DNA of 64,000 nt from an uncultured Candidatus Peribacteria bacterium (GTDB lineage Bacteria; Patescibacteriota; Gracilibacteria; BD1-5; UBA2023): contig CAZQUZ010000003.1 of NCBI GenBank assembly GCA_964596675.1, positions 30,198 to 94,197 on the forward strand, read 5' to 3'. Position numbers and translations under genes: made by a program. Every line of letters begins with the position of its first letter. The stretch's first letter is position 1. Below, in pieces: positions 12,155 through 38,238 of the stretch. The notes beneath the pieces are model-generated. The model ran no database searches and was not told the origin of the DNA. It was given only the letters and a program-made list of their open reading frames with translations.

Positions 12155-13718
12155 ATCCCATAAAGAGTGGATGCGGTCGAAATGGTCGAGATATGAGCTC
12201 TGGATGCGCCTGAGTCGCTATCATATAGGGATGATCTCGAAGTTCCACGACCTCAGCGAGGCTCCCATCTGGTGAAGTTGCCGATACGATGAATCCCTCT
12301 TTTTCCATCTGAGTACGATATGCAGGGTCGAACTCGAACCTATGTCGATGTCGCTCTATCACTTCTGTGGATGAGTAAATTTTCGCTGCAATAGAACCCT
12401 CGCGGATGATACACGGATATGAGCCGAGACGCATGTTGCCTCACTTGGTCGTCAGCTCTTTCTGATGATCCATGATATGGATGATATTATGTGCGCCCTC
12501 TGGGGTGAACTCTTCACTCGATGCATCAGTGATTCCGAGCACATTTCTCGCAAACTCTATCGCCATGATCTGAGACCCGAGACACACTCCGAGATAGGGT
12601 ATCTGCTTTTCTCGTGCATAACGGGCTGCCATGATCATCCCCTCTGTCCCACGCGTCCCGAATCCCCCAGGGATACAGATACCATCGAGTCATTCGAGAA
12701 GCTTTTCTCCCTCTTTTTCGATATCTTCCGCTTCGACGAATCGGATTTTTATGCGTTTTTTATGAGCGAATCCTGCACACTTTAGTCATTCATTCAGAGA
12801 ATAGTATGCATCTTCGAGTCAGACATATTTCCCGACCATACCGATACGCAGTACTTCGAGCGAGCTATCGATATTCGAGAGGAAGTCTTCCCACGGCTTC
12901 ATATCGAGCCGTGTAAATGGGATATGCAGATTCGAGAGAAGCTTTTCTCAGAGATGGTCTCGATGGAATGCGAGTGGTACACGATAGATCGTATCGAGTG
13001 TCGGCGCTGAGATGACGGCATCCCGCTGGATACCCGATGCCGATGCGATCTTCGCGAGCATGTCTTCTGGGATATCAGTATCAGCACGCACGATGAGAAA
13101 GTCTGGAGAAATCCCATAACTCATAAGCGTACGGATAGAGTGCTGTATGGGCTTCGTTTTGAGTTCTTTCGATGCCATGAGGTATGGCAGGAGCGCCACA
13201 TGGATGAACTGTACATGCTCCTCTCCGAGCTCATGTCTGAGCTGACGAGCCGACTCGAGGATATACTCATTCTCCATATCACCGACCGTACCGCCGATTT
13301 CTATGATGGAGATATCAGCTCCAGCAGATTCGGCTCAGGTGCGGATTTTTTCCTTTACGAGGTCCGTGAGGTGTGGGACGATCTGGACCGTACCCCCGAG
13401 ATAGTCACCGCGACGCTCTCTCGCTATGATCTCTTCATAGAGCTTTCACGAGGTAAATGAAGAAAACCGATTCATATCTGTATCGAGAAATCGTTCATAG
13501 TGACCGATATCAAGATCCGTCTCAGCTCCATCAGCCGTCACGAATACCTCTCCATGCTGATATGGACTCATCGTACCAGGATCCACATTGAGGTATCAGT
13601 CGAATTTCTGGCAGTATATCTTCTTGCCTGCGGACTTCAGCAGTGCGCCGATAGATGCAGCAGATATGCCCTTTCCGATGCCCGAGAGGACACCTCATGT
13701 GATGAAAATGATTTTCAT
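12132..13718 (-). CDS. pyrG: CTP synthase
   Basis: 528 aa. Motifs: [17 protein letters not shown] (the first Gly of GG is TGA, complement 13695-13697), GTVGDMEN, and the glutaminase domain [18 protein letters not shown] and HRHRFEF. Confidence 0.95.
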
Positions 13719-13815
13719 AAAGTGAATAATTTGTGAGCTAATAGTACGTGATTTTTCTTTTTGCTTCTTTCCTTGGCGAATTTCATTTCTAAAAATAGAT
13801 AAAATCGCTGGGGTT

Positions 13816-13914
13816 CGGGGTGGCAATCGCGTGAAAATCACGAATCGAGCAGTACTCCTATATACTACGTTGCCACCCCGAGACTTTTGGTTCCTTTTGG
13901 TCACAAAAGGAACC
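13816..13914. promoter_or_regulatory. structured intergenic element upstream of pyrG (leader or small RNA)
   Basis: A perfect 11-bp long-range helix CGGGGTGGCAA (13816-13826) / TTGCCACCCCG (13870-13880) encloses the hairpin CGTGAAAATCACG. It is followed by a 10-bp hairpin GGTTCCTTTT/AAAAGGAACC (13889-13914). Confidence 0.35.
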
Positions 13915-13941
13915 TATCCTAAACTAGAAAGTACTGAAAAA

Positions 13942-13971
13942 GAAAAAAGAGGTCTCGAAAGACCCCTTTTT
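13942..13971. terminator. bidirectional terminator after the sufD-like gene
   Basis: Stem GAGGTC / GACCCC with loop TCGAAA, with an A-run before and a T-run after. Confidence 0.5.
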
Positions 13972-14048
13972 ATCGTATGAAGACGCATGTGTTTGGCACC
14001 GTTATCATGGGATGATTATAGAGAAAAATCTGAAAAAGCAAAAAAGAA

Positions 14049-14663
14049 TTACATAAGTTTCGAGAGTATCTCCTCTTTTATACCCTCCGCCTCACCCTCC
14101 ATCACCGCGACATGCCGCCCTATCTCCGCCTCGATGAGCATCCCCTCTGCAGTCGATGCATCGATCCCATGTGATGCGAGATAGAAGAGTGACTCTTCAG
14201 ATATCCGATGTATCCGACATGAGTGTCATCACTCGATAGAGTCTGTCGCGACCTCGAGAGTCGGACGACCGAGTACGCGCGCACCCGTCCCGAGGAGGAT
14301 ATAGGTCTGGTCGACTCGGAGCTTCACACGCTCACATCCGAGTGCGACTCCTCCCGTCCCAGCGATATCGAGAGTACTCCCATCTTTCGCGAGCGCGAGG
14401 AGATCGAGTGATGCCTCAGTATCTGATCCCTCTATAAAAACGGACATTTTTAGAACCATATTTGCTCAAATGATAACTGCAGCTCATCGGAATATCGCCC
14501 CCTCCTCGAGGATGAACTTTCTCGTATAGACCCCATCTTTCTCTGGGATGAGGAGATACTTTTGACATGACGATCTCCCGATGCGTATCTCACGAAATGC
14601 CTCTTCTCATCGGTCGAGAATCGGAGTGTGATTGGTCTGTATTTTCGGATTTTGGCAAGTCAT
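14049..14663 (-). CDS. short SufD-like Fe-S assembly protein (204 aa)
   Basis: It carries the C-terminal SufB/SufD signature RPTLEVATDSIEGGHSCRIHRISEESLFYLASHGID. It is extended upstream of track ORF 14229-14459 to ATG 14663 and downstream through TGA to TAA at 14049-14051. Confidence 0.6.
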
Positions 14664-14707
14664 AACGAGAGTATAGAGAGAGAAAGCAAAATGACAAATA
14701 GAATTTT

Positions 14708-14736
14708 TTGGAATTTAGAGAATATTCGTGTATGAT
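14708..14736 (+). promoter_or_regulatory. sigma70-like promoter TTGGAA-N17-TATGAT
   Basis: The -10 box ends 8 nt before ATG 14745. No SD-like sequence is present. Confidence 0.45.
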
Positions 14737-14744
14737 AGATGTAT

Positions 14745-17174
14745 ATGTCCCACTCTCATCATACTATCACATACGAGGTCGCCGTGGATCGCGCGAATGA
14801 AAAATGAGTCTTCGTCGCTCGGGAGATGCTCTCGACCCTCCATCATGCGGTCGAGCACCTCCATCCATGGTGGCAATTTTGGCATCATAGCGTCCACCCA
14901 GTATTTCGCCTCGAGATGGTCGCGAATGAGGGGAGGATACGATTTTTCCTCTCGACCGATAGAGAGTTCGCCTCATTTATGACGAGTCAGATATATGCTC
15001 ACTATAGCGATGTAGAGCTCTTCGAGTGTGAGTCACCACTCCCGAAAAAGGCATCCTATCGAGTCCGCGACATCACCCTCGCTCATCACTCCCTCGATAC
15101 ACTGAAACTCTATGTCAATCTAAAGGATCGCACTGAAAAAGAAAGCATCGACCCACTCTCATCACTGACAAGCGCTCTATCGAAGGTGCCAAAATGAGAA
15201 AAATGAGCCTTCATCATCGACTTTGCTCCGCTCGAAGACCATATCTGGAGAGAACATGGGAGTATCAGTATCTGGGAGTCACACTTCATACCGGACTTTC
15301 TCCGCATGCAGGCGCTCCACTTCGCGAGTCATATCGGATGGCTCTTTCTCCCGCTCTCATGGACGGCGAAAGTGCTCTCATTTCTCATACCAAAAGGTGA
15401 AGACGAGCATGATACATGACATGCCCACGAGGACAAAAAAGAAAAAACTGAGACCAAGCTCGAGAGCTATGGCTATCAGGTACAGATACGCATCGTGAAA
15501 GATGTACACGATAGAGTAAATGATGAGATGATACTCCGTGAGCTCGCTGGGAGCCTGAATATATTCGCCAATCCCAATGGCAACCACCTAAAAAGCAAAA
15601 AAACGCGCATCATAGAGAATCTCCCATGACTCCATAAGCTCGCGAAGTCGTCGATGATACTCTCCGTCACCGAACTCGCAGGACTCATCCATCTCCCCAC
15701 GCTCTACGTGAAAACTCCTGGTATCCACTGGGTGACGACCCGTAAATTCGAACCCCCACACAATCTCCCATCTACAGACAATCCAAACACTCCTATCGGC
15801 ATGGCGAACTACCGCGGCGGACTCCAGGGATTCGGGCTCGAGCCTATCGACAGAGCGAGACATACCTATATCATCGGGAAGACCGGTATGGGTAAGTCGA
15901 CGCTCCTCGAGAATATGATATATACCGATATTCTAAATGGTCGTGGTGTCGCTGTCATTGATCCACATGGAGACCTCGTCGAGACGATACTCGCGAATAT
16001 CCCGAAGTCACGCACGAATGATATCGTCCTATTTGATCCAGCGGATCAGGAGTATCCGATAGGATTTAACATGCTCGATAATCCCCACCCAGAGCTCCGT
16101 CCTATCGTAGCTGGTGGGCTCGTATCGATTTTTAAGAAGATGTTTGCCGAGAGCTGGGGGCCCCGTCTCGAGTACATCCTCCGCAACACTATCCTCACAC
16201 TCCTACTCATCCCAGAAACGACACTCATCTCTATCCCACTCATGCTCACCCATGAAGCCTATAGACGTAAGGTTGTCTCGAAGATAGATGATCCTATCCT
16301 CGTCCAGTTCTGGAACGAAGAGTTCGCGAAGATGAGTCCATCGATGCAGAGCGAAGCGGTGAATCCCATACTCAATAAAGTCGGGCAATTTCTCTCATCA
16401 CCAATACTTCGAAACATCCTCGGTCAGCCGAAAAATCCATTTTCTCTGCGGTGGATCATGGATAATAAAAAAATATTTCTCGTAAACCTCTCAAAATGAC
16501 GTATCGGTGAGGATGCGAGTGCCCTCCTCGGTGCGATGATGGTGACAAAGTTCCAGATAGAAGCCATGACACGTGCTGATATACCCGAAGCAGAACGTGT
16601 AGATTTCTGACTCTATGTCGATGAGTTCCAGAACTTCGCGACCGACTCATTCGCGACGATACTCTCAGAGGCTCGTAAGTATAAGCTCTCACTTACTATG
16701 GCGAATCAGTATATCGCACAGATGGCGGAGACAGTACAAGGTGCAGTATTTGGGAATGTAGGATCTCTCGTCGCATTCCAGGTAGGATACCATGATGCGC
16801 TCACACTCGCGGAAGTCATGGGCGGTGAAGATATGATCACTCCCAATGACCTCATGAACCTGAAAAAATACGATATCTACACAAAGCTCCTCATCCATGG
16901 GATGCCATCACCAGTATTTTCTGCGACGACCTATGCACCACTCAGAGAGCGTATCGATGTGCCACCGCAGCAGTCTCGTGACGTCCTCCTGAAAGTCTCT
17001 CGTGAAAAATACACGAAGAAAAAAGACTTCGTCGAGAAAAAAATCTTCGAAAATGTAAATAAGATCCGTGATGAAGAGAAAAAACACCAAGAACAAAAAG
17101 AAGCCTATAAAGAAAAAATTAAAGAAGATCAGCGCATAAAACGCGAAAAAGAAAAAACCGAAAAATGAGCATAA
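14745..17174 (+). CDS. VirD4/TraG/TraD-like type IV coupling ATPase, paralog 1 (809 aa)
   Basis: One frame joins track ORFs 14826-15197, 15654-16499 and 16698-17168 through TGA. Motifs: Walker A IIGKTGMGKSTL, LYVDEFQNF, SEARKYKLSLTMANQY. It has a Lys/Glu-rich C-terminal tail and an N-terminal ~330-aa domain of unknown function. Confidence 0.8.
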
Positions 17175-17227
17175 CTTGCGAATGATACAAAAATCTTTAT
17201 AGTCATACCATATTATCTTTCCTCGAT

Positions 17228-18175
17228 ATGAAATATCTCCTTCTTTTTTTCCTTGCATCTTTCACATTCTCAGATGCATTTGCTGTGAATGATAGTCTCA
17301 ATATTCGCGATACAACGAATGTGATGATATGAGGAAATAGTGAGCATGATAACTTAAGTACTTTTATCTATCCGGTACTTGATTTCTTCTATATACCAAC
17401 TGGAAATAACGATGCTATCCAAAATACATTTATCGCTATAGCAGGAGGAATTAAAAATTTTTTCATTCTTATTGCGGTTATTTTTCTCATCGTCGGTGTG
17501 ATGAAATTATTTTTCTGATGAGGGGACGAAGAGGCACAAAAAAAATGGAAAAGCAATATTATCTGGGTATCTGTGGGAGTATTCTTTATGCAAATCGCCT
17601 ATTCTATATGGCGTACACTCTACTTCGATGAGAACTTTGCTCGTATCGATGGACGACTCGGATGGATGACATGGATAAATGTATTTGAGCCGATAGTAAA
17701 TATCCTCCTCCTTCTGGCATCATTTGGCTTTATCGCGATGGCGATATATGCATTTTATACGATTATCACCGGAGCTGGTGACGAAGAAAAGCTGAAAAAA
17801 TGAAAAAATATCGTCATATATGCACTCATTGGGTACCTCCTTATACGAGTCCCAAAATTTCTCGTCACTGCCCTCTATGGTGAGCCATCGTGAGAGTGTA
17901 AAAATAACGTCTGGAGTTTTTGAACATGTGAAATCGAAAACCAAAATCTTGGAGCAAGTATTAATGTATTCTGAAAAATACTCACCTATCTCAGTAGTTT
18001 TCTCGCACTTTTTGCTGTCATCATGGTTATATATGCTGGATGGCTCATCTTCATATCCGGGGGTGATGAAGAGAAGTTAAAGAAGGCAAAACGTACTATT
18101 ATCTATCTTGCTATCGGACTTATACTTCTCGTAGCCAGTCAGGCAATATTTCGATTTTTCTTTCTGAAAGGCTAA
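17228..18175 (+). CDS. triple VirB2/TrbC-like pilin fusion protein (315 aa)
   Basis: Signal peptide MKYLLLFFLASFTFSDAFA. There are three tandem units, each consisting of a TM helix, then G(G/A)GDEE and a K-rich turn, then a second TM helix: FFGGGDEEAQKKWKSN, ITGAGDEEKLKKGKN and ISGGDEEKLKKAKRT. I translated it codon by codon under code 25. Confidence 0.7.
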
Positions 18176-18190
18176 AAAAACGGGGAATTT

Positions 18191-18219
18191 TTGCATTTTT
18201 ATGAGCTTTTTAGTATAAT
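18191..18219 (+). promoter_or_regulatory. near-consensus promoter TTGCAT-N17-TATAAT
   Basis: The -10 box ends 6 nt before ATG 18226, which implies a leaderless or nearly leaderless mRNA. Confidence 0.6.
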
Positions 18220-18225
18220 GACTTC

Positions 18226-20649
18226 ATGCAGATAGCGGAAGTCATTTTTCTTATTTTAGGAGTACTCTTCGTGGTATGAGTTTTTTATATTCTCACGAAA
18301 AAGAAGATCGCACTAAAACGCTCACTCGATATGAGATTTCTCCGTATTATCATCGGACGGAAAGATAGTGAAAAAGATGAGCGATGAGACACTGTCAAAG
18401 ACTTTCGTGAGCAGATATCTATCATGGAGCAACTCCTCGCAAGTATGAAGTCTCTCTATGTAGGAAATGCGATGGGATGGCTCTTTGGTCAGGAGTATAT
18501 CTCTCTCGAATATATCGCCCATAAACAGGAAATATACTTTTATATCGTCGTACCAAAAAAATCGAAAATCCTTGTCGAAAAACAGATTCTCGGTTTTTAT
18601 CCAGATGCGAGTATCGAGGAGACGGATGAAGTCAATATTTTCGAAGGGCGGAGTGTGGTGCGAGGCGAGATCTTGAAGCTCAAGAAACATGATGAATTCC
18701 CAATACGTACCTATCAAAAACTCGAGACTGACCCGATGAATAGCCTCCTTTCTGCACTCGGAAAACTCAACGAGGAAGAGTCGAGCTCCATCCAGATTCT
18801 CATGAGACCAGTAGATGATGACTGGCAAGACCGAATCCGTAAACATATAAAAAAATCTGAGAAAAAATGATGACACCATATGTCATGGAATCCTCTCGAT
18901 TGGATACTTTGATTTATCGATGCATTTACACGCTGAAACTCTGAAAAATCATCTTCAGATGAACATGATGAGAGTGAGCCGATCGATGAAGAAGGGCTTA
19001 TGAAAGAAAAAATAAAAAAGACAGGCTATCAGGTAACAATACGTGTTATTACGACTGGTAATGACGAGAATGATGTCTATGCGGAGCTCCAAAATATTCT
19101 TTCTGCATTTTCTCAGTTCGCTTCACCGATGTATAACCGATTTAAAGCCGTAAAGAAAAAATCTATCTCACTCCTCATCAATAACTATATTTTTCGTCAA
19201 TTTAGTGCTTGGCAAGGTGGATATATACTCAATAGTGAGGAGCTCGCGACACTTTTTCACTTTCCGCATAGTAAATATAATAAGCAACCTGAGATTCGTT
19301 GGCAGCGGTTTAAGCTGATAAAGGCACCAACCAATATCGCAAAAGAGTGACTGTATATCGGAGATAATGTATTTCGTGGAGAGAAAAAACCGATTTTTAT
19401 CAAAAATGAGGACCGATTTCGACATTTTTATGTCATCGGACAGACTGGTACAGGTAAATCATCTATCCTATCGACGATGGCGCGCCAAGATGTGCGCGAG
19501 TGACGTGGACTTGCCATACTCGACCCACACGGTGACCTCGCGAAAGAACTCGTATGATATATCCCTAGAGAACGTGCTGATGATTTGGTATATTTTGACC
19601 CTGGGGATCTCGCACGTCCTATGGGGCTGAATATGCTCGAAGCCGCGAATGATGACGAAAAACAAATGGTCGTAGCCGATGCTACGAATATCATGATAAA
19701 ACTCTTTGGAAGTGAGATATTCGGACCTCGTATCCAGGACTACTTTCGCAATGGATGTCTCACCCTCATGGACTATCCACAAGGCTGAGCCATCACTGAT
19801 ATTATCAGACTCTTTACAGATGATAACTTCCAGCGGGAGCGCCGAGCTACCCTAAAAAATGCAGTCGTAAAAGCCTGGTGGGATTATACGTATGCCAAGA
19901 TGGGTGAGCGAGAAAAAGGAGAAATTATCCCATATTTCGCAGCGAAATTCGGACAATTTATCACCAATACCATGATGCGTAATATCGTGTGACAGACGAA
20001 GAGCGCATTCGATATCGGAGAGATCATGAACAATGAAAAACTCCTCCTCATCTCACTCTCGAAAGGTATCATCGGTGATCTGAACTCGACGCTGCTCGGT
20101 CTCATCCTCGTCTCGAAGATACAGATCGCAGCCCTACGCAGACAAAATATGGCGAAAGAGGATCGTAAAGATTTCTTTCTCTATATCGACGAGTTCCAGA
20201 ACTATGTGACCGACTCTATCGAGTCTATCCTCTCAGAAGCTCGTAAGTATCGCCTCGGACTCGTCATCGCGCATCAGTACCTCGGACAACTCGAGAAGTC
20301 AGATGCTCTCACGAAATCGAATCTGAATCTCAAGTGAGCCATATTTGGTAACGTAGGAACTGTCATGAGTTATAAGCTCGGTGCGGAGGATGCTGAGTTC
20401 ATGGCGAAGCAATTTGCTCCAGCATACTCTGAGCAAGACTTCGTCAATATGGATAAGTTTAAGGCTGCACTCAAACTCTCGGTCGATAATCAACCAACAC
20501 CAGGATTCTCCCTCTCACCACCGAATCCATTTGCTGAGATGCCAGATGCAAAAATCGGAGCCGCCCTGAAAGAGCTTTCGCGATTAAAGTATGGTCGCGA
20601 GAGAGAGTTCGTCGAGAAAGAAATTATTTATCGCATAGGTGCTGTCTAA
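18226..20649 (+). CDS. VirD4/TraG/TraD-like type IV coupling ATPase, paralog 2 (807 aa)
   Basis: N-terminal TM anchor (IFLILGVLFVVGVFYIL). Motifs: Walker A VIGQTGTGKSSI, LYIDEFQNY, SEARKYRLGLVIAHQY. It joins six track ORFs (18424, 19000, 19585, 20026, 20365...) in one frame. The N-domain is paralogous to gene 14745-17174. Confidence 0.8.
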
Positions 20650-20651
20650 TT

Positions 20652-21611
20652 ATGAAATTTTTTTATACTTTCATCTCGCTTGTGACTGTCTCATCCAGTA
20701 TCATACCGATAGTGGCAGCTGAGGATATGGTCGGCTGTGATACGAAGACGTATGCATGCTATACGCAAAAAGTATCTCAGAGTTGCACGAAAACAGGACT
20801 TCCCTGGACCAAAAATCCGAATCTTTGAAAGACAAGTTCCTGCGACTATCCTGATTTTACAGAGGAAGGACTAAAAAGTGTAGTGAATTGTATGGAAAAT
20901 GCGGATACAAAAAGCGGTGGAGGATTTCTCGAGAATCTCACTCTTTCGAATCTCGGTAATATCCCTGGATTTCGTACTACAGAAATCGCACGAAAAATAT
21001 ATCGAAAAAATATGAATGCCGTATTTGGCTGTGCTGTGCTAGCAAGTCGCCAGGACAAGCTCACTCGACTGGAGGAATCCATACGCTGAAATTCTCAGGC
21101 GAGCGACATCCAAAAAAGTCTAGAAAAAGAACGGAAAAAATATGAGTCTCTTATGTCACGCATGAATTGTAATCAAAATCGTACAGAAAGTCCCGAAGAT
21201 AAAGTCATCGACCGGCTTTCTGCGAGCGCGATGCAAGAATATTGTAGTTATACGTATTATCTCGATTATCTCGAGGCAAATCTACAAAATGATTTTTCTG
21301 AAGCAGAAAAGACAGAGTTATCACTCCGCGATGTCACGCTCCAAAATCGTGCTACTACCACAGAACAAGCCGGGAAAATATGGAGAACATACCAAGCTAC
21401 GATTGACTCAGAGCGCTCCAGAGCACATGAAACTGTACCCAAGGCCATCCTCGCTTACCAAGAAATGGATCGTACTTATATCACACATATCCTTCTCGTC
21501 ATCATTTTCGATGACTATCTGAAACTCAGGGGCAACCTCGATACCTACCTCGCTCTCATTTCCCAAACATTCGAAAAAGCATATAATGCGCAGGATGCAC
21601 GGCAAAGATAA
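20652..21611 (+). CDS. secreted Cys-rich protein (hypothetical, 319 aa)
   Basis: ATG lies 2 nt after the upstream stop. It has a signal peptide (MKFFYTFISLVTVSSSIIPIVAA) and several Cys in the N-terminal third. It joins track ORFs 20883-21089 and 21153-21611. Confidence 0.6.
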
Positions 21612-21641
21612 AAAATCCCCATCATATGATGGGGATTTTTC
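21611..21641. terminator. bidirectional terminator
   Basis: Stem AAAATCCCCA / TGGGGATTTT between convergent genes. Confidence 0.7.
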
Positions 21642-21860
21642 CTATTTTCCGAGCTCTTCTGTCTTCTTCTGACGAGCATAGAACTTGTCCATAGTACTGG
21701 TTTTGAGGAGGGTCTTCTTTCCTGTGTAGAATGGGTGACATTTAGAACAGGTTTCGACACGTATCTCATCACCTTTTATCGTACTTCCAGTTTCGAAAGT
21801 ATTTCCACATGAACAGATGACATTTACCATCTTCCATGCTGGGTGGATATTGCTTTTCAT
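21642..21860 (-). CDS. rpmE: 50S ribosomal protein L31
   Basis: MKSNIHPAW..., with CSCGNTF...[11 protein letters not shown]. Contains no TGA. Confidence 0.9.
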
Positions 21861-22017: not shown

Positions 22018-22102
22018 TGGTGCCCAGGAAGAGACTTGAACTCTTACACCGTACGGCAACGGCTTCTAAGACCGTCGTGTCTACCAATTCCACCACCTGG
22101 GC
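22018..22102 (-). tRNA. tRNA-Leu(TAG)
   Basis: 85 nt. Acceptor GCCCAGG/CCTGGGC, anticodon loop CTTAGAA, long variable arm, T-loop TTCAAGT, and an encoded CCA. Confidence 0.9.
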
Positions 22103-22114
22103 AGAAAAAACTAA

Positions 22115-22199
22115 TGGTGGGCCGGGTAGGATTCGAACCTACGAAGTCGTAGACAAAGGATTTACAGTCCTCCCCATTTGACCGCTCTGGAACCGACCC
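22115..22199 (-). tRNA. tRNA-Tyr(GTA)
   Basis: 85 nt. Acceptor GGGTCGG/CCGGCCC, anticodon loop CTGTAAA, long variable arm, T-loop TTCGAAT, and an encoded CCA. Confidence 0.9.
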
Positions 22200-22288
22200 A
22201 GAAAAAAAGTTTTAACCCTCAGAATTTTAGATTTTCGATATTGTTTTTTACCAAAATCCAATATTCCAAACATTAAAACTCCAGAGAA

Positions 22289-22364
22289 TGGAGCCACCAA
22301 TCAGACTTGAACTGATGACCGCCGGTTTACAAAACCGATGCTCTACCAACTGAGCTATGGTGGC
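22289..22364 (-). tRNA. tRNA-Thr(TGT)
   Basis: 76 nt. Acceptor GCCACCA/TGGTGGC, D-arm GCTCAGTTGGTAGAGC, anticodon loop TTTGTAA, T-loop TTCAAGT, and an encoded CCA. Confidence 0.9.
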
Positions 22365-27471: not shown

Positions 27472-28806
27472 TTATTTTTCTGAATCTTTCAGAAACCATT
27501 TTTTCCATAATTTTTGGAAAAAATTCGGCTTTCTAAATTCATTTTTGACAGATTCTTCAGATATAGGATCTGAGGGATTTGGATTGGGTACTCCACTCAG
27601 GGGTGAGTACTCTTCTTTTTTTTGAGTATCTAGCTTTTTAGATACTTCATCTTTATTGTTTATTATAGGTTTTTGTGCAGATTTCACTTCTGGAGATACT
27701 GTGGATATATGGGTTTGAGGTTCTAGAGATTTTTCTATAGGATGATTCTGTTTTTTATTTTTAATCTTCTTCACTCCTATACTCACCTTTTTTTCTACAC
27801 TACCATCCGTATGAGTCTGAAGTACATCCTGTGGTATGATAATGGTTTCTTCCCCATCTGTATAGGTAGAGACGATTCTCTGGGATGCGTCTGTCAATTC
27901 TCATATATAGAACTGGTTCTCTTTAAATACTCATATAAATCTATTTCCATTCCTGATATACAATCCCTTCCCATCTCGCATATCATTTTTCCACTCTCAT
28001 TTATAATAGTCTCCATTCTGAAAATTCATAATCCCGTACCCACTGCGTAGATCTGATTCATAGGTTCACCTATATTCTCATTCTGGATATTGTACTGGGA
28101 TGACATCTTCCTTTTTCTGGATAGGAATTTCAGTATCTTCATGGGAAACCTCCGCATCAGATTCGTTTTCCCCGTCTTTCGTACTAGTAGTACCATCTGC
28201 ATTATAGAATTTTCATGTCTCGAAATCATCATCTCGAAACGTTCAGTCATAGTACGACCCGTCAGAAAAAACCAACTGCCCACCACCATTTCGCATATCA
28301 TCTTTCCACTCTCACGAATAACCATTTTCGGAACTATCAATGAATAATCATATACCATGACGTTTACCCTCTACAAACTGTCATGTATATACTCCACTAC
28401 CTGGATATTCTTTTCTTTGGAAATCATCATCTACAGTTACCACCGTTGGCATCGGGGCAGCCTCTACTGGAGGCACTAGTCATTCTGAGATAGTGTTATC
28501 TGGTATGGAACTATCCGATGGTGCGATACTCTGAGGAGTAAGTGTCAAAATATCACCGAGAAGTGCTGTCTTTTTTGGTCTCGCTGAAAATGGTGCATTC
28601 TCTGCCACTTCTTCTGCGAGGGTTTTTAGCATTCTTTTATTCTCTCTATCGAGAGATAGAAAGATCTTTTCGAGTTCCTTTGTACTCTTATTTGCATTTT
28701 CACTATCACCTGCTCGTAATAGGGCATGGGTGATTCATTCTCATTTTCTTATTTTTACTTCTCATTTTTGGATGTTTTCACGTACTGATTCTATATCGAG
28801 TGGCAT
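27472..28806 (-). CDS. MORN-repeat protein (444 aa)
   Basis: I translated it codon by codon under code 25. MORN-like units: YTGQFVEGKRHGIG, YSGEWKDDMRNGGG, YDGTFRDD, YRGTYESDLRSGYG, YKGEWKNDMRDGKG. It has a Lys/Pro-rich C-terminal tail. Confidence 0.75.
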
Positions 28807-28892
28807 AAGTATATATATAATAGAGTTATAATAATAGCGCTTTTTTATAAATTTGTCAAAAACAATGCGTAATAGGAGGCTATTTTGGCATC

Positions 28893-29837
28893 CTAAAATA
28901 AATATGGGGCATATAGAGTAAAACTACTTCCTGATTTGGCAAATGTGGAATCGAGCAATATCTGGGAAGCTTGGCTTATTCAGAGTCATTCTCATACAAG
29001 TAATGTAATTTCTAATGTTGCTGGATTTCTCTGGATAGCATAGGTCGGACGTATCTGAAAACTCTGTCCATCTTTATCTATTCACTTTATGAATCCATCA
29101 CTTGCGATGGAAAGATAATTCTTTTTCATATCTCCGCTGAGTGAGATATTCATCTGAAGTCCATCTCATGTATCCTCTAGAAGTCGGAGATCTACACGTA
29201 TAGAATGATATGTTTTTTGAAAATGTACTCATCACACACCATCTGACTCTATCCATCCATCTAAAGGATCAAACATATACCCATTCGTAGCCTGAAAAAA
29301 TGGCTGTATCTCTATGGCTGTTTGTTTCTCATGAAATCATGGATGCTGTAGAAATTTTTGGCGAATCCTGAGTGACTCATCTTCCAGGTACACTACTTCA
29401 GGTGAGACTGTGGTGTTTTGAGTTGTATATTTGGATTTTTGGGATACATTCTCTGGTGTAGAGGTAAGTACTCCATCTTGGATAGATTGTATTTTATTTT
29501 TCAGTTTATTTGGTACATTCTCGACTACCTCAGGAGTGATAGATTCAGCTTTTTTAGCATCTTTTTTTATCCGTGATCTTCTAGCAGCATTACCAGCGGC
29601 AAGTAAAACTCATCATAATCATAAGAGTTCTACTCCATAGCTTCTAGTCTCTCATGAGACATCTATACCGATATTATGAGCATACTGTTGCATCTCTGGA
29701 GATGATGTTATTATTCGCTCGATATTTGCACGCACCTCCTCTTGGGTCATCTCATGTACTGGCTTTGCGGATAGAGTCGGCGTGGATAGCATGAGACTCC
29801 CTGCGGTAAAAAGAGATGTAAGGAGTTTTTTTGACAT
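28893..29837 (-). CDS. secreted/membrane hypothetical protein (314 aa), island gene 1
   Basis: Signal peptide MSKKLLTSLFTAGSLMLSTPTLSA and a Gly-rich TM segment VELLGLGGVLLAAG followed by RRSRIKK. It has about 13 in-frame TGA codons. TAG stop at 28893-28895. Confidence 0.55.
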
Positions 29838-29851
29838 AATAAAACCGATAC

Positions 29852-30631
29852 TTATCGTACTAAAAATGCTTGTTTTGTCTCCAAGAGATATAATTTTTCC
29901 CTATCCGTCATCTTGGGAATTTTTTTATTTGAGGCTATTTCTTTATTTCGATCTAAAAATATCTGAAAATCTCCAAGAGTATAGGATTGATTTTTATAAT
30001 CAGGGGTAAATCAATTCTCTCGCGTGAGGAACTCATGAACTTTTCATGGAAATCAGATTAATGGCTGATTTTGTATACTCTCTGGGGTATATACTGTTTT
30101 TTCTATTTTCTTATAGAGCAGATTATTTTTTTCATCGAGTGAAACTATAAACATCCCATCAGAATATGTTTTATCTGGATTTTCATGAAATCCATTCGAT
30201 ACAAGGAGTTCATGTGTTTTGTTCATAAATCCATTCGGCCTTACTTCCATATCCTCTGATAAAAATCATTTTCATATATCTTGTGATGGGGTAATATGTT
30301 TCGCATATTTCTCCATAAGAGTATCTATCTTCGCATCATCGAGTCGTATGATATCCCCCTCACGCACACTATGTACGGCTCTATACCCATATTTTTTGGT
30401 AGATATTCTATTTGGTGTGAGCGCATGCTCATCAGTACTAATCACTCGCGAAAGATCACGCAAGAGTTTACGGGTATTATTATCTAATTTTTCTTTTTTT
30501 AAATCTATACCCATAGCCACGGCAAGCTGCTGGGAGATACCATTTCCTCTTTCGATAGTGATACCCTTTTTTAAGGCCTCTGAGAGCTTATCGGATTGCT
30601 CTGATGTAAGGAGATTTTCTCGGGTTGACAT
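29852..30631 (-). CDS. hypothetical protein (259 aa), island gene 2
   Basis: Track ORFs 30272-30631 and 30053-30250 share a frame and join through TGA. TAA stop at 29852-29854. No motif recognised. Confidence 0.55.
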
Positions 30632-30767
30632 ATATACAAAATAATTATATATAATATATCACTATTTTTAGAGTATGTCAAATAATATTACTCTCCCTTT
30701 GGGTTATAAACTTTCTTTTTATATTCAGTTATGATACGATATATATAGTAATTTTACCTTTCTCTAT

Positions 30768-31967
30768 ATGGCTGAAATGAATAATACTCTGGAACAGGCT
30801 CCAGAGAAATCACTTACAAATAATACTGACTATATCCGTGCATCACTCGGGGATGCATATACATATTATCAAAATAATAAATCTCTCGATGGCTGGGAAA
30901 CAAAAGATAGCTATAGCCTCTCGAATGCGATGGGTGCTCATCAGATAGCGAGTAATACTCTCCATAAGCGTGAGAACATCACTCTACAAGATATCGATAC
31001 GGCATTGGATCACACATCATATAGTTCCACCCCTGAATACAGGGAAGCCTATCTCGCATATGCTCGTGGGAAGTGGGGCATCATACAAGCTGCGAAAACA
31101 GAAGAAAATCTACTCAAAAAGGAAGTGCTATGAAATCCTGAGTCTGCTCAAGTTACTAAAGAAGAATCCACTGTAAACTCGGAACAAAAACCTGAAACAA
31201 AGCCTGTACCCGAAAAGAATACTAAAAATAATCTTACTGAACAACAGGAAAATCTCTCAACACCTGGGACTAAGGGGGGTACAAGCAATCAATCATCTGA
31301 GAAAAGAGAAGGGATGAGTGATAAGTCCATCTTAGAATATAATAAGCAGTATATAGAGAGGAACTGACTATGAGAAGGTAGTTATTATACTAAACAATTC
31401 CCTGAATTAGAAGATCCAACTAAAAAGAATATTATCACCATACAACATAGGTTGAATACATGATTCGTAAATACAACACAAACCATAAAACTCACTCAAG
31501 ATGGAATATTATGAAAAAATACATTGGCAGCAATGCGGAAATTTATAGATACTAAAAAAGGGGAACAAAAAAAAGTAGACAATGGAAACAAGCCACTGTC
31601 GAATGTAGAAGAGAGAAACAAAGAAAAGATTATCTGAGAATGAAGCAAATTTATAGATAAAATCATAGCGAATAAAGAAATTTTTAATAAATTTATTGAC
31701 CTGAATGTTAAACAATATTATCTGGAAGATATTACTCCATTTAATAAGATAAAATATTTTGTGAATATTGAATGAGCTAAGCAAGGAGATCTACAGATGA
31801 GTACAAATATTGGCCACGCATATGAGAATGTGCTGAGTGGAACGAATCTAACTCAATGGAGGAGTCTCACGGAGAGAGGGAAAGAGGCTATTATACAGGA
31901 ATTAAATACTATATGGAAAAAGCGAGCAAATACAGAAATCCAGAAGATGAATACCACTAAAAAGTAA
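30768..31967 (+). CDS. hypothetical protein with putative peptidoglycan-binding-like repeat (399 aa), island gene 3
   Basis: Open through 8 TGA codons. The segment IQHRLNTGFVNTTQTIKLTQDGILGKNTLAAMRKFI resembles a PG_binding_1 helix pair. The central linker is low-complexity and rich in Lys, Glu and Thr. Confidence 0.6.
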
Positions 31968-31992
31968 CATTGTCTAATCCATTATTAGGAAT

Positions 31993-32024
31993 AAATCACC
32001 CCCATGTAGAATGGGGGTGATTTA
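31993..32024. terminator. bidirectional terminator
   Basis: 12-bp stem AAATCACCCCCA / TGGGGGTGATTT between convergent genes. Confidence 0.65.
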
Positions 32025-32043
32025 TTCAATATGTATAACTCTA

Positions 32044-34188: not shown

Positions 34189-34197
34189 ATTAAAAGA

Positions 34198-37100: not shown

Positions 37101-38076
37101 ATTGTTCTACTGTAAGGGGAAAATCTATATTATTGAGATAGCGTGCCGATGAGAGAAATGATTGTTCAGAGGCAGTAAGAGTGCCTCATTGTGATTTTTT
37201 ACGTAAAAATGATGTATAATCTTCTTTTGTCACTTTATCAGAATATATAAGTTCCCCATTTTCATTCTTTTTCGCCGTGTCACTTACGCTCTTACTATAA
37301 TTCGCAAATGATGGATTATTAGCATACAATAATCCTGATTGTAATGCTGAGACAAGTACATTAGATTTTGCGAGATTATGATTTATCTTTGTTTCCACTT
37401 CGACTCTATCATTTTTCTGAGAGTCTATGCGTATCTGATTCTGTGATGTAAATGTAAGTTGGTATCCGAGTCCCTGAAGATCACTGAGCAACATTCCGCC
37501 GAGCATACCACGTACGAGTGGTTCATATTTATGTATTTCTCGCATATCGAGATTTTTGGCTGCAGGGATATCCTGTATCCACTCCAGAGTAGCATATTGA
37601 TCTATCGTATTAATCGCTTTTTGGAGGTTGTCTAGACTCATTTCTGCTAAAAATACTCGGACTGATTCTGCTTTTTTTTCGACCTCATTTCTGATTTTTG
37701 TATCTACGGATTGTACATTTTCCTGACTCTCTATATTCACTACTTCTTCACTAGAAGTTAACGCCAAATTATTTCATTTTTTCTGGGGGAGCATGCGTTT
37801 TTGATTTCTAGAACTGTTGGTTTTTATAGTATTTTTTTGTTTCTCATAACTATTCATGAGAGTTTCATATTCGCGAATCTGGCTCTCCATAAGAGCATCC
37901 TCTCTTTGCGGTTGGAGGATATTTTGTGCTTGCTCTTGTGGTGTCATTTCTTTTCTATATTTTTCTATCTTTTCTCTCATCTCTTTTCTATCGAGCAACG
38001 TTTCTTTTTTTATATTCCCAGATTTGAGTATATCGATTTGTTTCTGGAGCTCTTGATGCAATTCTCTGTCAGACAT
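34198..38076 (-). CDS. giant orphan protein with glycine-zipper membrane segments (1292 aa), island gene 5
   Basis: Codon-by-codon code-25 translation gives one frame joining track ORFs 37774-38076, 37186-37767, 35872-36135, 35638-35865 and 35041-35238, with 32 in-frame TGA codons. An in-frame TAA lies 9 nt upstream of ATG 38076. TAA stop at 34198-34200, 9 nt before the next gene. Gly-rich hydrophobic blocks lie around nt 36780-36960 and 35040-35330. Confidence 0.65.
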
Positions 38077-38176
38077 AAACTTATATTAAAAATGTAATTA
38101 CCCTTTCACTCTACCATATTTGGCTATATTTCGCAAATATTGAGAGCAAATTATTGAGTTTTAGGGAGAATTATAT

Positions 38177-38217
38177 AAAAAAATACTATAAATGCAATTT
38201 ATTCATAGTATTTTTTA
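38177..38217 (-). terminator. terminator after island gene 6
   Basis: Stem ATACTAT / ATAGTAT flanked by A- and T-runs. Confidence 0.5.
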
Positions 38218-38238
38218 TGAGTCAAGATATTTTTAGAA

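What the first reader, a model, noticed from the sequence alone, without database searches (positions are those of the whole stretch)
14708..21641. Compact T4SS-like module with two paralogous VirD4-like ATPases bracketing a pilin gene and no other canonical T4SS parts
Four co-oriented, tightly packed genes are bounded by a promoter and a terminator. They are an 809-aa coupling-type ATPase, a pilin-like protein, an 807-aa paralogous ATPase with an N-terminal TM anchor, and a 319-aa secreted Cys-rich protein. Both ATPases share the VirD4/TraG P-loop core (GKTGMGKS / GQTGTGKS, VDEFQN, SEARKY.L). They also share an uncharacterised N-terminal domain of about 330 aa (FRLEMVANEGRIRFFLSTDREF..QIYAHYSDVEL versus ISLEYIAHKQEIYFYIVVPKKS..QILGFYPDASI). 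This window contains no VirB4, VirB6, VirB8-11, relaxase or oriT. A duplicated coupling protein around a pilin, without the channel ATPase, does not fit described conjugative or effector T4SS layouts. It could be a minimal DNA or protein transfer device of an episymbiotic CPR cell, and comEC is also present at 56.9 kb.
Basis: partly seen in the sequence, partly recalled or inferred. Interest (0 to 1): 0.7.

Follow-up and report, generated by a model that had tools for sequence, protein, structure and literature searches.

The report
Paired coupling ATPases with fused pilin
A tiny symbiotic bacterium that reads UGA as glycine carries an operon joining two ancient copies of a conjugation-type "coupling" motor, a three-in-one pilin and an unknown secreted protein; it looks like a lineage-specific piece of the recently described secretion system of these bacteria, not a new stand-alone machine.

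Summary
There are four co-oriented genes: A1 (811 aa), pilin P (315 aa), A2 (807 aa) and C (319 aa). They end at a strong terminator and sit between housekeeping genes. A1 and A2 are paralogues (31% identity over 758 aa). Both belong to a monoderm type IV coupling protein (T4CP) lineage with an N-terminal DUF8128 domain. On Bacillaceae plasmids their full-length relatives sit next to a relaxase, TcpC/TcpE and a separate VirB4. The duplication is ancient and found across Patescibacteria: A2-type proteins are membrane-anchored and A1-type proteins are not. P is a conserved fusion of three VirB2-like (PF18895) pilin hairpins. C is an orphan all-helical secreted protein. Only pilin-A2(-C) is a conserved operon, and only in code-25 lineages. 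A second, distant code-25 lineage links the A2-type ATPase to tri-domain pilins in a different gene order. A1 joined the cluster only in this window's close relatives. The window has no VirB4, VirB3, VirB6 or relaxase, but published surveys show that Patescibacteria, and Gracilibacteria in particular, scatter their T4SS genes and carry about two T4CPs per genome far from virB4. Most likely this is the pilin and coupling arm of that dispersed T4SS. A T4SS-independent DNA-translocase role is a serious rival, because homologues occur in SPO1-like phages. New variant of a known kind; moderate interest.

The parts
14049..14663 (-). Context: small SufBD-family gene transcribed divergently from A1. 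It is the ancestral upstream neighbour of A1 orthologues.
   Evidence: blastx of the 13905-14738 gap hits SUFBD_core genes that precede A1 orthologues in L003, L005 and L006 (contexts).
14708..14736 (+). Weak sigma-70-like promoter match upstream of A1 (TTGGAA-17-TATGAT, 9/12).
   Evidence: The number of such matches in the region is not above the shuffled expectation, so this is not evidence of function.
14739..17174 (+). A1: 811-aa A1-type T4CP paralogue. It has a DUF8128 N-domain, a T4CP nucleotide-binding domain plus all-alpha domain, and a Lys/Glu-rich tail. It has no N-terminal TM helix.
   Evidence: Pfam hits above gathering score: TrwB_AAD_bind 28.8 bits, T4SS-DNA_transf 25.8, TraG-D_C 23.9, DUF87 26.6. 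Homologues carry PF26449 = DUF8128. Only 3 of 93 A1-type proteins have an N-terminal TM. A TAG stop lies directly upstream of the start codon.
17228..18175 (+). P: signal peptide followed by three tandem VirB2-like (PF18895) pilin hairpins in one polypeptide. The loops read FFGGGDEEAQKKWK, ITGAGDEEKLKKGK and ISGGDEEKLKKAK. Two Cys lie in the outside linker between units 2 and 3.
   Evidence: PF18895 T4SS_pilin at 75.3 bits (cut-off 26.6) in 3 stretches; NCBIfam Mbov_0395 pilin-like family at 50.9 bits (cut-off 40). Hydropathy and repeat alignment. The three-domain fusion is conserved in orthologues L005-L009. UGA codons encode the GG of the first loop motif.
18190..18219 (+). Promoter-like site in the 50-nt P-A2 spacer (TTTGCA-18-TATAAT, 10/12).
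   Evidence: This is a consensus match only.
18226..20649 (+). A2: 807-aa A2-type T4CP paralogue. It has an N-terminal TM helix (residues about 3-25), a DUF8128 domain (about 60-370), and a T4CP nucleotide-binding domain plus all-alpha domain (about 375-720).
   Evidence: Pfam DUF87 31.8 bits and TrwB_AAD_bind 23.7 bits, both above cut-off. hhalign of the family profile against the T4CP-slot protein of a Niallia conjugative operon gives probability 100, E 5.9e-45, over 637 columns. AF2 model of the 87%-identical proxy P0122 has pLDDT 76. Foldseek results. 111 of 113 A2-type proteins have the N-terminal TM.
20652..21611 (+). C: 319-aa secreted, Cys-rich, all-alpha protein with a nearly invariant C-terminal helix. 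It is an orphan family and starts 2 nt after the A2 stop codon.
   Evidence: No Pfam, NCBIfam, PADLOC or PHROG hit. 30 close homologues and 280 representative clusters by profile search. AF2 model of proxy P0246 has pLDDT 76 and pTM 0.70 and is all-helical. No PDB fold match (best E 0.15). It lies downstream of A2 in L005-L010.
21611..21640 (+). Intrinsic terminator (13-bp stem, 4-nt loop, T-run) shared with the convergent rpmE gene.
   Evidence: sequence read.
21642..21860 (-). Context: rpmE (ribosomal protein L31), convergent with the operon. tRNA-Leu, tRNA-Tyr and tRNA-Thr (22018-22364, minus strand), rlmH and fusA follow.
   Evidence: ORF translation; tRNAs; SPOUT_MTase.

Best explanation

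Shown:
- A1 and A2 are two ancient paralogues of a monoderm T4CP family (DUF8128 plus a TrwB/VirD4-like ATPase). Both keep intact catalytic motifs.
- A2-type proteins are anchored by one N-terminal TM helix. A1-type proteins are not.
- P is a fusion of three VirB2-like pilin hairpins. Its topology is self-consistent: each hairpin starts and ends outside the cell, and its charged loop faces the cytoplasm.
- The pilin, A2 and the secreted protein C form a conserved operon. A1 was brought next to this operon by a recent rearrangement.

Inferred:
- A2 forms a membrane-anchored hexameric motor. A1 is either a soluble partner or an alternative hexamer.
- The motor recruits a macromolecular substrate and feeds it into a T4SS channel whose other parts (VirB4, PrgI/VirB3, TrsD and a divergent VirB6) are encoded elsewhere in the genome.
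- As shown for classical T4CPs, the motor may also switch the machine between pilus production and substrate transfer. Co-transcription with the pilin would then balance pilus building against transfer.
- P supplies the extracellular filament or conduit towards the host cell, and C is a pilus-associated or secreted accessory factor.
- No relaxase is present, so the substrate is probably not a mobilised plasmid. It could be protein, or DNA moved in or out during the epibiotic or predatory interaction.
For: T4CP identity:
- Pfam TrwB_AAD_bind, T4SS-DNA_transf and TraG-D_C score above their gathering scores.
- The closest solved sequences are TrwB and DotL.
- Foldseek matches TrwB, DotL and Cag-beta over the C-terminal 360-410 residues with target-normalised TM-score 0.5-0.56.
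- The family profile aligns over 637 columns (E 6e-45) with the protein in the T4CP slot of Bacillaceae conjugation operons. Those operons also carry a Replic_Relax relaxase, TcpC, TcpE, a separate AAA_10 VirB4 and a VirB6-like gene.

Ancient paralogy:
- Separate A1-type and A2-type clades appear with the Firmicutes T4CPs outside both.
- Both types occur in Saccharibacteria and Berkelbacteria loci.
- The TM anchor is found in 111/113 A2-type and 3/93 A1-type proteins, and catalytic motifs are intact in both.

Link to the pilus:
- The order P-A2-C is conserved in L005-L009 in different neighbourhoods; L010 keeps A2-C but no pilin was detected upstream.
- A distant code-25 lineage, whose ATPase is only 37% identical to A2, has A2-type followed by two tri-domain pilins and a small pilin, with gaps of 27-61 nt in L095 and L096.
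- P passes PF18895 three times.

Literature:
- Patescibacteria have an MPF-FATA-derived T4SS with VirB2-like pilins that is essential in S. epibionticum. T4CP homologues number about two per genome and lie far from virB4. In Gracilibacteria the VirB3 and TrsD genes are not near VirB4 (PMC12102498, PMC10633639, PMC12857230).
- T4CPs switch T4SSs from piliation to transfer (PMC13463995).
- PrgI and a TraC-like gene lie 6 kb from P-A2-C in L008.
Against: - No VirB4, VirB3 or VirB6 lies within 14 kb upstream or 42 kb downstream, and their presence elsewhere in this genome is unverified.
- In most Patescibacteria the A2-type gene has no pilin within 7 kb (81 of 88 loci), and its neighbours there are housekeeping or unknown genes.
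- The family is unusually conserved for a T4SS part: 37-40% identity across classes.
- The T4CP homologue was not essential in S. epibionticum, while the T4SS genes were (PMC12102498).
- Full-length homologues exist in lytic SPO1-like phages that have no T4SS.
- In known systems, T4CPs are not needed for pilus biogenesis.
- C has no recognisable relation to any T4SS component.
Confidence: 0.5

Rival explanations
1. A1 and A2 are housekeeping, T4SS-independent DNA translocases. They would be T4CP-derived pumps used for DNA uptake, export or processing, or for chromosome handling. In this reading their adjacency to the pilin in code-25 lineages reflects shared regulation or envelope localisation and not a shared machine.
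For: - The two-copy pattern is near-universal, and most copies lie far from virB4 (PMC12102498).
- Cross-class conservation is strong.
- Neighbours outside Gracilibacteria are housekeeping or unknown genes, including a XerC/D-like recombinase in 10 loci.
- The T4CP was non-essential where the T4SS was essential.
- Full-length relatives occur in lytic phages without any T4SS: phrog_5156, SPO1 gp27.4, CP-51, phage G, TP-84 and D6E.
- The authors of PMC12102498 themselves state that exaptation cannot be excluded.
Against: - A2-type and pilin genes are linked in two different gene orders in deeply diverged code-25 lineages.
- A 2-nt A2-C junction and 27-61-nt ATPase-pilin gaps in L095 and L096 point to co-transcription.
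- The nearest functionally placed relatives are coupling proteins of conjugation operons.
- The Xer adjacency is confined to related Microgenomates-type loci and is on the opposite strand.
Confidence: 0.27
2. This is the first reader's idea in its strong form: the four genes are a self-sufficient minimal pilus or translocation device. A T4CP-derived, VirB4-shaped ATPase (A2, perhaps with A1) extracts and polymerises the tri-domain pilin and moves substrate without VirB4.
For: - Foldseek ranks full-length VirB4 (TrwK) first for the A2 proxy. About 830 columns align, including DUF8128, with E 4e-13 against 3e-9 for T4CPs.
- A2-type and pilin genes are repeatedly adjacent in code-25 lineages.
- VirB6 is undetectable in Gracilibacteria (PMC12102498).
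- No other T4SS gene lies in the 64-kb window.
Against: - TM-scores for the VirB4 matches are low (0.24-0.28, rmsd about 21 A).
- hhalign of the family against a bona fide VirB4 is negative (probability 4.8).
- AAA_10 scores below its cut-off.
- The same family coexists with a separate VirB4 in Firmicutes operons.
- A1 is unlinked in most relatives.
- The reporting of VirB3/VirB4 association for Gracilibacteria in PMC12102498 implies that VirB4 homologues occur in that class.
- PrgI and a TraC-like gene occur near P-A2-C in L008.
Confidence: 0.12
3. The module is a remnant of, or cargo on, an integrated conjugative or mobilisable element.
For: - The T4CP family derives from plasmid conjugation systems.
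- tRNA genes lie at 10.8 kb and at 22.0-22.4 kb.
Against: - There is no integrase, relaxase or detectable repeat boundary in the window.
- GC content (0.41-0.49) matches the flanks.
- Neighbours are conserved housekeeping genes: sufBD-like, pyrG, rpmE, rlmH and fusA.
- Orthologues follow class-level groupings in the tree and occur in almost every Patescibacteria genome.
Confidence: 0.03

Closest known systems
Patescibacteria-type T4SS (MPF-FATA-derived; Wang et al. 2023, PMC10633639; Quinonero-Coronel et al. 2025, PMC12102498)
   Same: It has VirB2-like PF18895 pilins in a monoderm. It has no relaxase. T4CP homologues are encoded away from virB4 at about two per genome. In Gracilibacteria the T4SS genes are scattered.
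   Different: Here the T4CP-type ATPase is in an operon with the pilin, whereas in Saccharibacteria the pilin array sits in the virB4 cluster. The pilin is a three-domain fusion and not an array of single-domain genes. An orphan secreted protein, C, is part of the operon. The two T4CP paralogues are adjacent. I did not find the split into an anchored and an unanchored paralogue, or the DUF8128 domain, described in the papers I read.
T4CPs of Bacillaceae conjugative plasmids (Niallia NZ_CP137637, Bacillus CP085709, B. thuringiensis pIS56-63): the DUF87/DUF8128 protein upstream of the replication-relaxation relaxase
   Same: They are homologous over the full length, covering DUF8128 and the ATPase (hhalign E 6e-45 over 637 columns), and share the same catalytic motifs.
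   Different: The plasmid genes are single-copy and sit in a complete conjugation operon with a relaxase, TcpC, TcpE, an AAA_10 VirB4 and a VirB6-like gene, and no pilin. The window has two chromosomal paralogues with a pilin and none of those partners. Identity is only about 23%.
TrwB / VirD4 / DotL / Cag-beta (structurally characterised T4CPs)
   Same: They share the P-loop nucleotide-binding domain with an inserted all-alpha domain (Foldseek target-normalised TM-score 0.5-0.56; Pfam TrwB_AAD_bind and TraG-D_C) and, for A2, membrane anchoring.
   Different: A1 and A2 have an extra domain of about 300 aa (DUF8128) between the anchor and the ATPase. A2 has one TM helix instead of two, and A1 has none. 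There is no associated relaxosome.
VirB4 / TrwK
   Same: It has a two-domain layout of about 800 aa with an N-terminal domain and a RecA-like C-terminal domain, and it is the top full-length Foldseek hit.
   Different: There is no sequence-profile relationship (AAA_10 below cut-off; hhalign probability 4.8). TM-scores are low. The family coexists with a true VirB4 in Firmicutes operons.
phrog_5156 (SPO1 gp27.4, CP-51, phage G gp156, Geobacillus TP-84, D6E)
   Same: It is a full-length profile match (E 1e-87 for A2 and 5e-74 for A1) that includes the DUF8128 region.
   Different: The genes are encoded by lytic phages that have no T4SS or pilin. Their function is unknown. Identity is 21-24%.
VirB2 / TrbC conjugative pilins and Mycoplasma ICE Mbov_0395 pilin-like proteins
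   Same: They share the hairpin of two hydrophobic helices joined by a short charged loop, a signal peptide, and membership of PF18895 / NF045849.
   Different: Three hairpins are fused in one 315-aa protein, whereas known pilins are single-domain proteins of about 70-130 aa.

Membership tests
Type IV coupling protein (VirD4/TraG/TrwB, T4CP) | P-loop nucleotide-binding domain with T4CP-type Walker A, Walker B (DEF), Arg and Gln motifs, recognised by T4CP profiles | tested here: met
   A1 scores above gathering for TrwB_AAD_bind (28.8 vs 20.5), T4SS-DNA_transf (25.8 vs 20.1) and TraG-D_C (23.9 vs 22). A2 scores above gathering for TrwB_AAD_bind (23.7 vs 20.5) but below it for TraG-D_C (17 vs 22). 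Columns GxTGxGKS, DEFQN, SEARKY and the Q columns are invariant in both paralogue families.
Type IV coupling protein (VirD4/TraG/TrwB, T4CP) | All-alpha domain inserted in the nucleotide-binding domain; TrwB-like fold | tested here: met
   The AF2 model of the A2 proxy shows a helical block at about 478-604. Foldseek matches TrwB, DotL and Cag-beta with E 3e-9 to 1e-8 and target-normalised TM-score 0.49-0.57 over 354-414 columns.
Type IV coupling protein (VirD4/TraG/TrwB, T4CP) | N-terminal transmembrane anchor | tested here: inconclusive
   A2-type proteins have one N-terminal TM helix (111/113). A1-type proteins have none (3/93). Classical T4CPs have two.
Type IV coupling protein (VirD4/TraG/TrwB, T4CP) | Homology to a protein in the coupling-protein position of a bona fide conjugation operon | tested here: met
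   hhalign gives probability 100 and E 5.9e-45 against the Niallia plasmid protein that lies next to a Replic_Relax relaxase, TcpC, TcpE and an AAA_10 VirB4. The same context occurs in two more plasmids.
Type IV coupling protein (VirD4/TraG/TrwB, T4CP) | Functional coupling of a relaxase-bound or effector substrate to a T4SS channel | not testable with these tools
   No relaxase or channel genes are in the window. Biochemistry or genetics would be needed.
VirB4 | Recognition by VirB4 sequence profiles (AAA_10, CagE_TrbE_VirB, TIGR00929) | tested here: not met
   AAA_10 gives E 0.017 and 14.6 bits against a cut-off of 27.5. TIGR00929 gives 12.9 bits against 643. hhalign against a true AAA_10 VirB4 gives probability 4.8.
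VirB4 | Two-domain N-terminal plus C-terminal fold | tested here: inconclusive
   Full-length TrwK is the top Foldseek hit (E 4e-13, 829 columns), but TM-score is 0.28 and rmsd is 21 A. A domain-level search was not possible.
HerA / FtsK translocases | Recognition by HerA or FtsK profiles beyond the P-loop | tested here: not met
   DUF87 hits cover only the P-loop region of about 60-70 residues. HerA_C, FtsK_SpoIIIE and NF040819 score far below their cut-offs. Foldseek matches HerA at 8.5e-9, weaker than VirB4 and comparable to the T4CPs, with rmsd 17.5 A.
T4SS pilin (PF18895 / VirB2-TrbC type) | Profile match above the curated cut-off | tested here: met
   PF18895 scores 75.3 bits against 26.6, in three stretches. 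NF045849 scores 50.9 bits against 40.
T4SS pilin (PF18895 / VirB2-TrbC type) | Signal peptide followed by a hairpin of two hydrophobic helices with a short charged loop | tested here: met
   There is one signal peptide and three such hairpins.
T4SS pilin (PF18895 / VirB2-TrbC type) | Small single-domain subunit | tested here: not met
   The protein is 315 aa with three domains. The fusion is conserved in orthologues and in a second code-25 lineage.
T4SS pilin (PF18895 / VirB2-TrbC type) | Polymerises into an extracellular pilus | not testable with these tools
   Microscopy or cryo-EM would be needed.
VirB5-type pilus-tip protein (considered for C) | VirB5/TraC helical-bundle fold or profile match | tested here: not met
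   No Pfam or NCBIfam hit. The best Foldseek PDB hit has E 0.15 and is to 14-3-3 proteins, with no VirB5/TraC hit.
Integrative conjugative element / conjugative T4SS locus | Relaxase, integrase and VirB4 in the neighbourhood | tested here: not met
   None is found in the 64 kb.
Patescibacteria-clade T4SS (PMC12102498) | Patescibacteria-clade VirB4, with TrsD and PrgI/VirB3, somewhere in the genome | not testable with these tools
   Only the window is available. A relative, L008, has PrgI and a TraC-like gene 6 kb from P-A2-C.

The most novel reading that the evidence does not exclude
In code-25 Patescibacteria a T4CP-derived ATPase has taken over pilus biogenesis. Its DUF8128 domain gives it a VirB4-like two-domain shape. 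In this reading the TM-anchored A2 hexamer, assisted by the soluble A1, extracts pre-fused tri-pilin blocks from the membrane and polymerises them, with C as a tip or adaptor. Together they would form a VirB4-independent minimal pilus and translocation machine used to tap host cells.
Probability: 0.12. Interest if true: 0.8.

Novelty: new variant of a known kind. Interest (0 to 1): 0.45.

Why it matters
The T4SS of Patescibacteria is essential for epibiotic growth in the one species tested, yet its substrate and mechanism are unknown. The near-universal T4CP homologues have been left as "possibly exapted". This locus contributes five things:
- The roughly two T4CPs per genome are two ancient, structurally distinct paralogues, one membrane-anchored and one not.
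- They descend from the DUF8128-bearing coupling proteins of Gram-positive conjugative plasmids, and they have relatives in SPO1-like phages.
- In code-25 lineages the anchored paralogue is repeatedly wired to the pilin genes. This is the first genomic argument I am aware of that ties these T4CPs to the pilus.
- The pilins of these lineages are fused trimers, which constrains models of how the filament is built.
- The secreted protein C becomes a new candidate accessory factor.

Together these give concrete genes to delete or localise in tractable relatives. They do not show a new kind of machine.

Tried and rejected
- Table-11 ORF calling was misleading. It was replaced by my own code-25 calling.
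- My first automatic assignments of genetic code to fetched loci were wrong twice. They were replaced by a coding-density ratio plus manual overrides.
- C as a VirB5-like tip protein was rejected because there is no fold or profile match.
- A1 and A2 as VirB4 was rejected at sequence level. Only a weak global fold resemblance remains.
- HerA or FtsK membership was rejected because the hits cover only the P-loop.
- Defence-system membership was not supported. The PADLOC hits are mad8 on the ATPase core and weak HerA P-loop hits, and no defence context is present.
- An ICE or island origin was rejected.
- A structured RNA in the pyrG-A1 gap was rejected. Rfam finds only tRNAs in the window, and the gap holds a SufBD-like gene.
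- A search for PrgI or TraC-like genes in the window, using the L008 genes as queries, found nothing.
- A literature search for DUF8128 found no paper.
- The conserved neighbours of A2-type genes outside Gracilibacteria (families of about 176 aa and 204 aa) gave no informative Pfam hit.

Full report
**1. The observation**

Under the default bacterial code the region is a mosaic of short ORFs. Housekeeping genes such as fusA are also split. Reading UGA as a sense codon raises the total length of ORFs of at least 150 aa in the window from 7,029 to 33,850 aa. It also yields four intact, co-oriented genes:

| Gene | Coordinates | Length |
|---|---|---|
| A1 | 14739-17174 | 811 aa |
| P | 17228-18175 | 315 aa from the signal-peptide Met |
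| A2 | 18226-20649 | 807 aa |
| C | 20652-21611 | 319 aa |

UGA stands for Gly, not Trp. In an alignment with 77 code-11 homologues, UGA positions fall on invariant Gly columns (A2 G375 70/77, G426 75/77, G589 77/77; A1 G587 77/77) and never on a conserved Trp. The organism therefore uses code 25, as Gracilibacteria and Absconditabacteria do. The closest database proteins are labelled Candidatus Gracilibacteria.

- A1 and A2 are paralogues over almost their whole length (31% identity over 758 aa, E 1e-117).
- Spacers are 53, 50 and 2 nt.
- A 13-bp-stem terminator follows the C stop codon directly (21611-21640).
- The claimed promoter is only a 9/12 consensus match, and such matches are not enriched in the region.

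**2. What surrounds it**

I annotated the whole window by Pfam, ARAGORN and Rfam.

- Upstream: pyrG and a small SufBD-like gene on the minus strand.
- Downstream: rpmE, three tRNAs, rlmH, fusA, era and others.
- No VirB4, VirB3, VirB6, VirB8-11, relaxase or integrase is present.
- comEC is at 56809-58332.
- GC content of the module (0.41-0.49) matches its flanks.

This is a chromosomal housekeeping neighbourhood, not an island.

**3. The ATPases are coupling-type**

Pfam places both proteins, weakly but above gathering score, in T4CP families. It also reports DUF87 hits restricted to the P-loop. HerA, FtsK and VirB4 models score far below their cut-offs. Homologues carry PF26449 (DUF8128) in the N-terminal 330 aa. 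I found no paper that mentions this domain. A profile of the family finds TrwB and DotL as the closest solved sequences.

The most informative evidence comes from annotated plasmids. tblastn with A2 finds near-full-length relatives, DUF8128 included, on Bacillaceae plasmids. In three independent plasmids that gene lies directly upstream of the following genes:
- a replication-relaxation relaxase;
- TcpC;
- TcpD/TcpE (annotated only as a "conjugal transfer protein" on the Bacillus sp. CMF21 plasmid);
- a separate VirB4-like ATPase (AAA_10 confirmed by Pfam for the Niallia plasmid);
- a VirB6-like protein (seen in the Niallia operon).

That position is the coupling-protein slot. The family profile aligns with the Niallia protein over 637 columns (probability 100, E 5.9e-45). 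It does not align with the VirB4 of the same operon (probability 4.8).

**4. A structural twist**

The model has mean pLDDT 76. Foldseek gave two kinds of match:
- T4CPs (TrwB, DotL, Cag-beta) over the C-terminal 360-410 residues, with target-normalised TM-score 0.5-0.56.
- Full-length VirB4/TrwK as the best E-values (4e-13, about 830 aligned columns including DUF8128), but with low TM-score (0.28).

DUF8128 may therefore be a VirB4-N-terminal-like domain kept by this T4CP lineage. This remains a hint, because I could not run a domain-level search.

**5. The paralogy is ancient and phylum-wide**

A scan of GTDB species representatives returned at least 599 confirmed loci. The best 80 are full-length, 37-75% identical, and span the following groups:
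- Gracilibacteria and Peri-/Peregrinibacteria;
- Saccharibacteria;
- Woese-, Davies-, Curtiss- and Levyibacteria;
- Uhr-, Falkow- and Magasanikbacteria;
- Doudna- and Berkelbacteria.

All 80 are A2-type. In L039, L054, L055 and L071 an A1-type gene lies 0-4 genes downstream. A distance tree (no bootstrap) separates an A1-type clade and an A2-type clade, with the Firmicutes T4CPs outside both.

The two types differ in a consistent way. 111 of 113 A2-type proteins have an N-terminal TM helix before DUF8128, against 3 of 93 A1-type proteins. Both keep Walker A, Walker B and SExRKY motifs. This matches the published count of 5,713 T4CP homologues in 2,918 of 3,035 Patescibacteria genomes, of which only 148 lie near virB4 (PMC12102498). 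I did not find the paralogue structure described in the papers I read.

**6. What is conserved as an operon**

- A1 orthologues at 50-69% identity stand alone (L001-L004). They often keep the sufBD/pyrG neighbourhood.
- A2 orthologues at 66-87% identity are flanked by a tri-domain pilin upstream and a C homologue downstream, in different wider contexts (L005-L009). L010 has C but no detected pilin.
- Only the closest relatives (L005/L006) share the window's A1-P-A2-C order. There the public gene calls place two spurious minus-strand ORFs over the pilin.
- The core operon is therefore P-A2-C. A1 was brought alongside it by a recent rearrangement.
- Outside this clade, 81 of 88 loci have no PF18895-like ORF within 7 kb of the ATPase.

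An independent metagenome sample, seeded with P, found a second code-25 lineage whose A2-type ATPase is only 37% identical to A2. There the order is ATPase, tri-domain pilin, tri-domain pilin, small pilin, with 27-61-nt gaps in L095 and L096 (L093, L095, L096). Linkage of the anchored paralogue to pilins in two different gene orders argues for functional coupling in code-25 lineages. Code-11 contigs from the same search show the usual arrays of single-domain pilins with no adjacent ATPase (L098/L099).

**7. The pilin and C**

P passes PF18895 three times (75.3 bits against a cut-off of 26.6). It consists of a signal peptide plus three hairpins, each a hydrophobic helix, a G-G-D-E-E-x-x-K-K loop and a second hydrophobic helix. 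This topology is self-consistent for a tandem fusion, because each hairpin starts and ends outside the cell. UGA codons encode the two Gly of the first loop motif, so this is one ORF.

C has a signal peptide, conserved cysteines and a nearly invariant C-terminal helix.
- It has only 30 close homologues and 280 representative clusters by profile search.
- It has no family hit in any library.
- Its predicted fold is all-helical (pTM 0.70).
- It has no PDB fold match (best E 0.15).

A VirB5-like role for C is therefore speculation.

**8. Comparison with what is known**

- Wang et al. 2023 showed an essential T4SS with a pilin array in S. epibionticum. [quoted passage not shown]
- Quinonero-Coronel et al. 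2025 showed that the system is MPF-FATA-derived and phylum-wide. T4CP homologues lie elsewhere and were non-essential. In Gracilibacteria, VirB3 and TrsD are not near VirB4 and VirB6 is undetectable.
- Khara et al. 2026 showed that T4CPs are needed for transfer and not for pilus assembly, and that they suppress piliation (PMC13463995).

The window's lack of nearby T4SS partners is therefore expected for this class. It is not evidence for a minimal machine.

**9. Rivals**

The family also matches phrog_5156 over its full length (E 1e-87 for A2, 5e-74 for A1). It occurs in lytic phages SPO1 (gp27.4), CP-51, G, TP-84 and D6E, which have no T4SS. Three further observations weigh the same way: the unusual conservation, the housekeeping neighbours and the non-essentiality in S. 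epibionticum. Together they keep a T4SS-independent DNA-translocase role alive (confidence 0.27). The stand-alone machine gets 0.12, mainly because of the VirB4-like global fold hit and the recurrent pilin linkage. An ICE remnant gets 0.03.

**10. Verdict**

The best reading (confidence 0.5) is that this is the pilin and coupling-protein arm of the dispersed Patescibacteria T4SS in a code-25 Gracilibacterium. An anchored and an unanchored T4CP paralogue form the motor, a fused tri-pilin forms the filament, and an orphan secreted protein accompanies them. It is a new variant of a known kind and of moderate interest.

The details that I did not find described are:
- the ancient split into an anchored and an unanchored paralogue;
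- the DUF8128 link to Firmicutes plasmid T4CPs and SPO1-like phage proteins;
- the T4CP-pilin operons of code-25 lineages;
- the tri-domain pilins;
- the C family.

Noticed in passing
window 27472-39216: A low-GC block (0.35-0.39, against about 0.44 elsewhere) holds seven large genes with no Pfam family except MORN repeats: 444 aa with MORN, then 314, 259, 430, 714, 1292 and 325 aa. The 1292-aa and 714-aa proteins have Gly/Ala-rich hydrophobic segments. This may be a surface or host-interaction island.
   Followed up: no
window 56809-58332: comEC is only 507 aa. It hits DUF4131 and Competence, but no metallo-beta-lactamase domain was reported.
   Followed up: no
window 50858-53833 (minus strand): A 991-aa Thr/Ser/Ala-rich protein carries an S-layer-homology domain. 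A 948-aa antisense ORF on the plus strand is probably an artefact of reading UGA as a sense codon.
   Followed up: no
window 14049-14663 (minus strand): The apparent 830-bp gap between pyrG and A1 encodes a small SufBD-family protein. It is homologous to the gene that precedes A1 orthologues in L003, L005 and L006. A full-size sufB lies at 48184-49599.
   Followed up: partly
L005/L006 12353-14004: Public gene calls place two minus-strand ORFs (158 and 354 aa) where the tri-domain pilin lies on the plus strand (13021-13983). This is a code-25 mis-annotation that hides the pilin in databases.
   Followed up: yes
L093 1942-7209; L095 1989-7124; L096 1891-7038: A second, distant code-25 lineage has the order A2-type ATPase (934-968 aa), two tri-domain pilins and a pilin of about 125 aa. 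C is absent. A conserved gene of about 610 aa on the minus strand follows.
   Followed up: partly
L054, L055, L071 (Berkelbacteria and Saccharibacteria): These loci share a conserved arrangement: A2-type ATPase, a gene of about 180 aa, a 346-aa Sigma70_r4 + HARE-HTH protein, then an A1-type ATPase of about 1,000 aa. In L039 the two paralogues are directly adjacent.
   Followed up: partly
10 Microgenomates-type loci (for example L046 9578-10441): A XerC/D-like tyrosine recombinase lies within three genes of the A2-type ATPase, on the opposite strand. This could be lineage synteny, or a hint of a DNA-processing link.
   Followed up: no
phage records: SPO1 FJ230960 93194-95122 (gp27.4), phage G gp156, CP-51, TP-84, D6E: Lytic Bacillus and Geobacillus phages encode full-length relatives of the DUF8128-T4CP family (phrog_5156, unknown function). 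One is annotated as VirD4-like.
   Followed up: partly
A1 371-714 and A2 399-730 (protein coordinates): The PADLOC model mad8 (MADS defence system) matches the ATPase core at E 6e-14 (A1) and 3e-16 (A2). Streptomyces plasmid 'ATP/GTP-binding proteins' also match this region.
   Followed up: no
L008 3077-4231: PrgI (VirB3-like, PF12666) and a TraC-like (PF26593) gene lie about 6 kb upstream of P-A2-C in a related Gracilibacterium. No counterparts exist in the window.
   Followed up: partly
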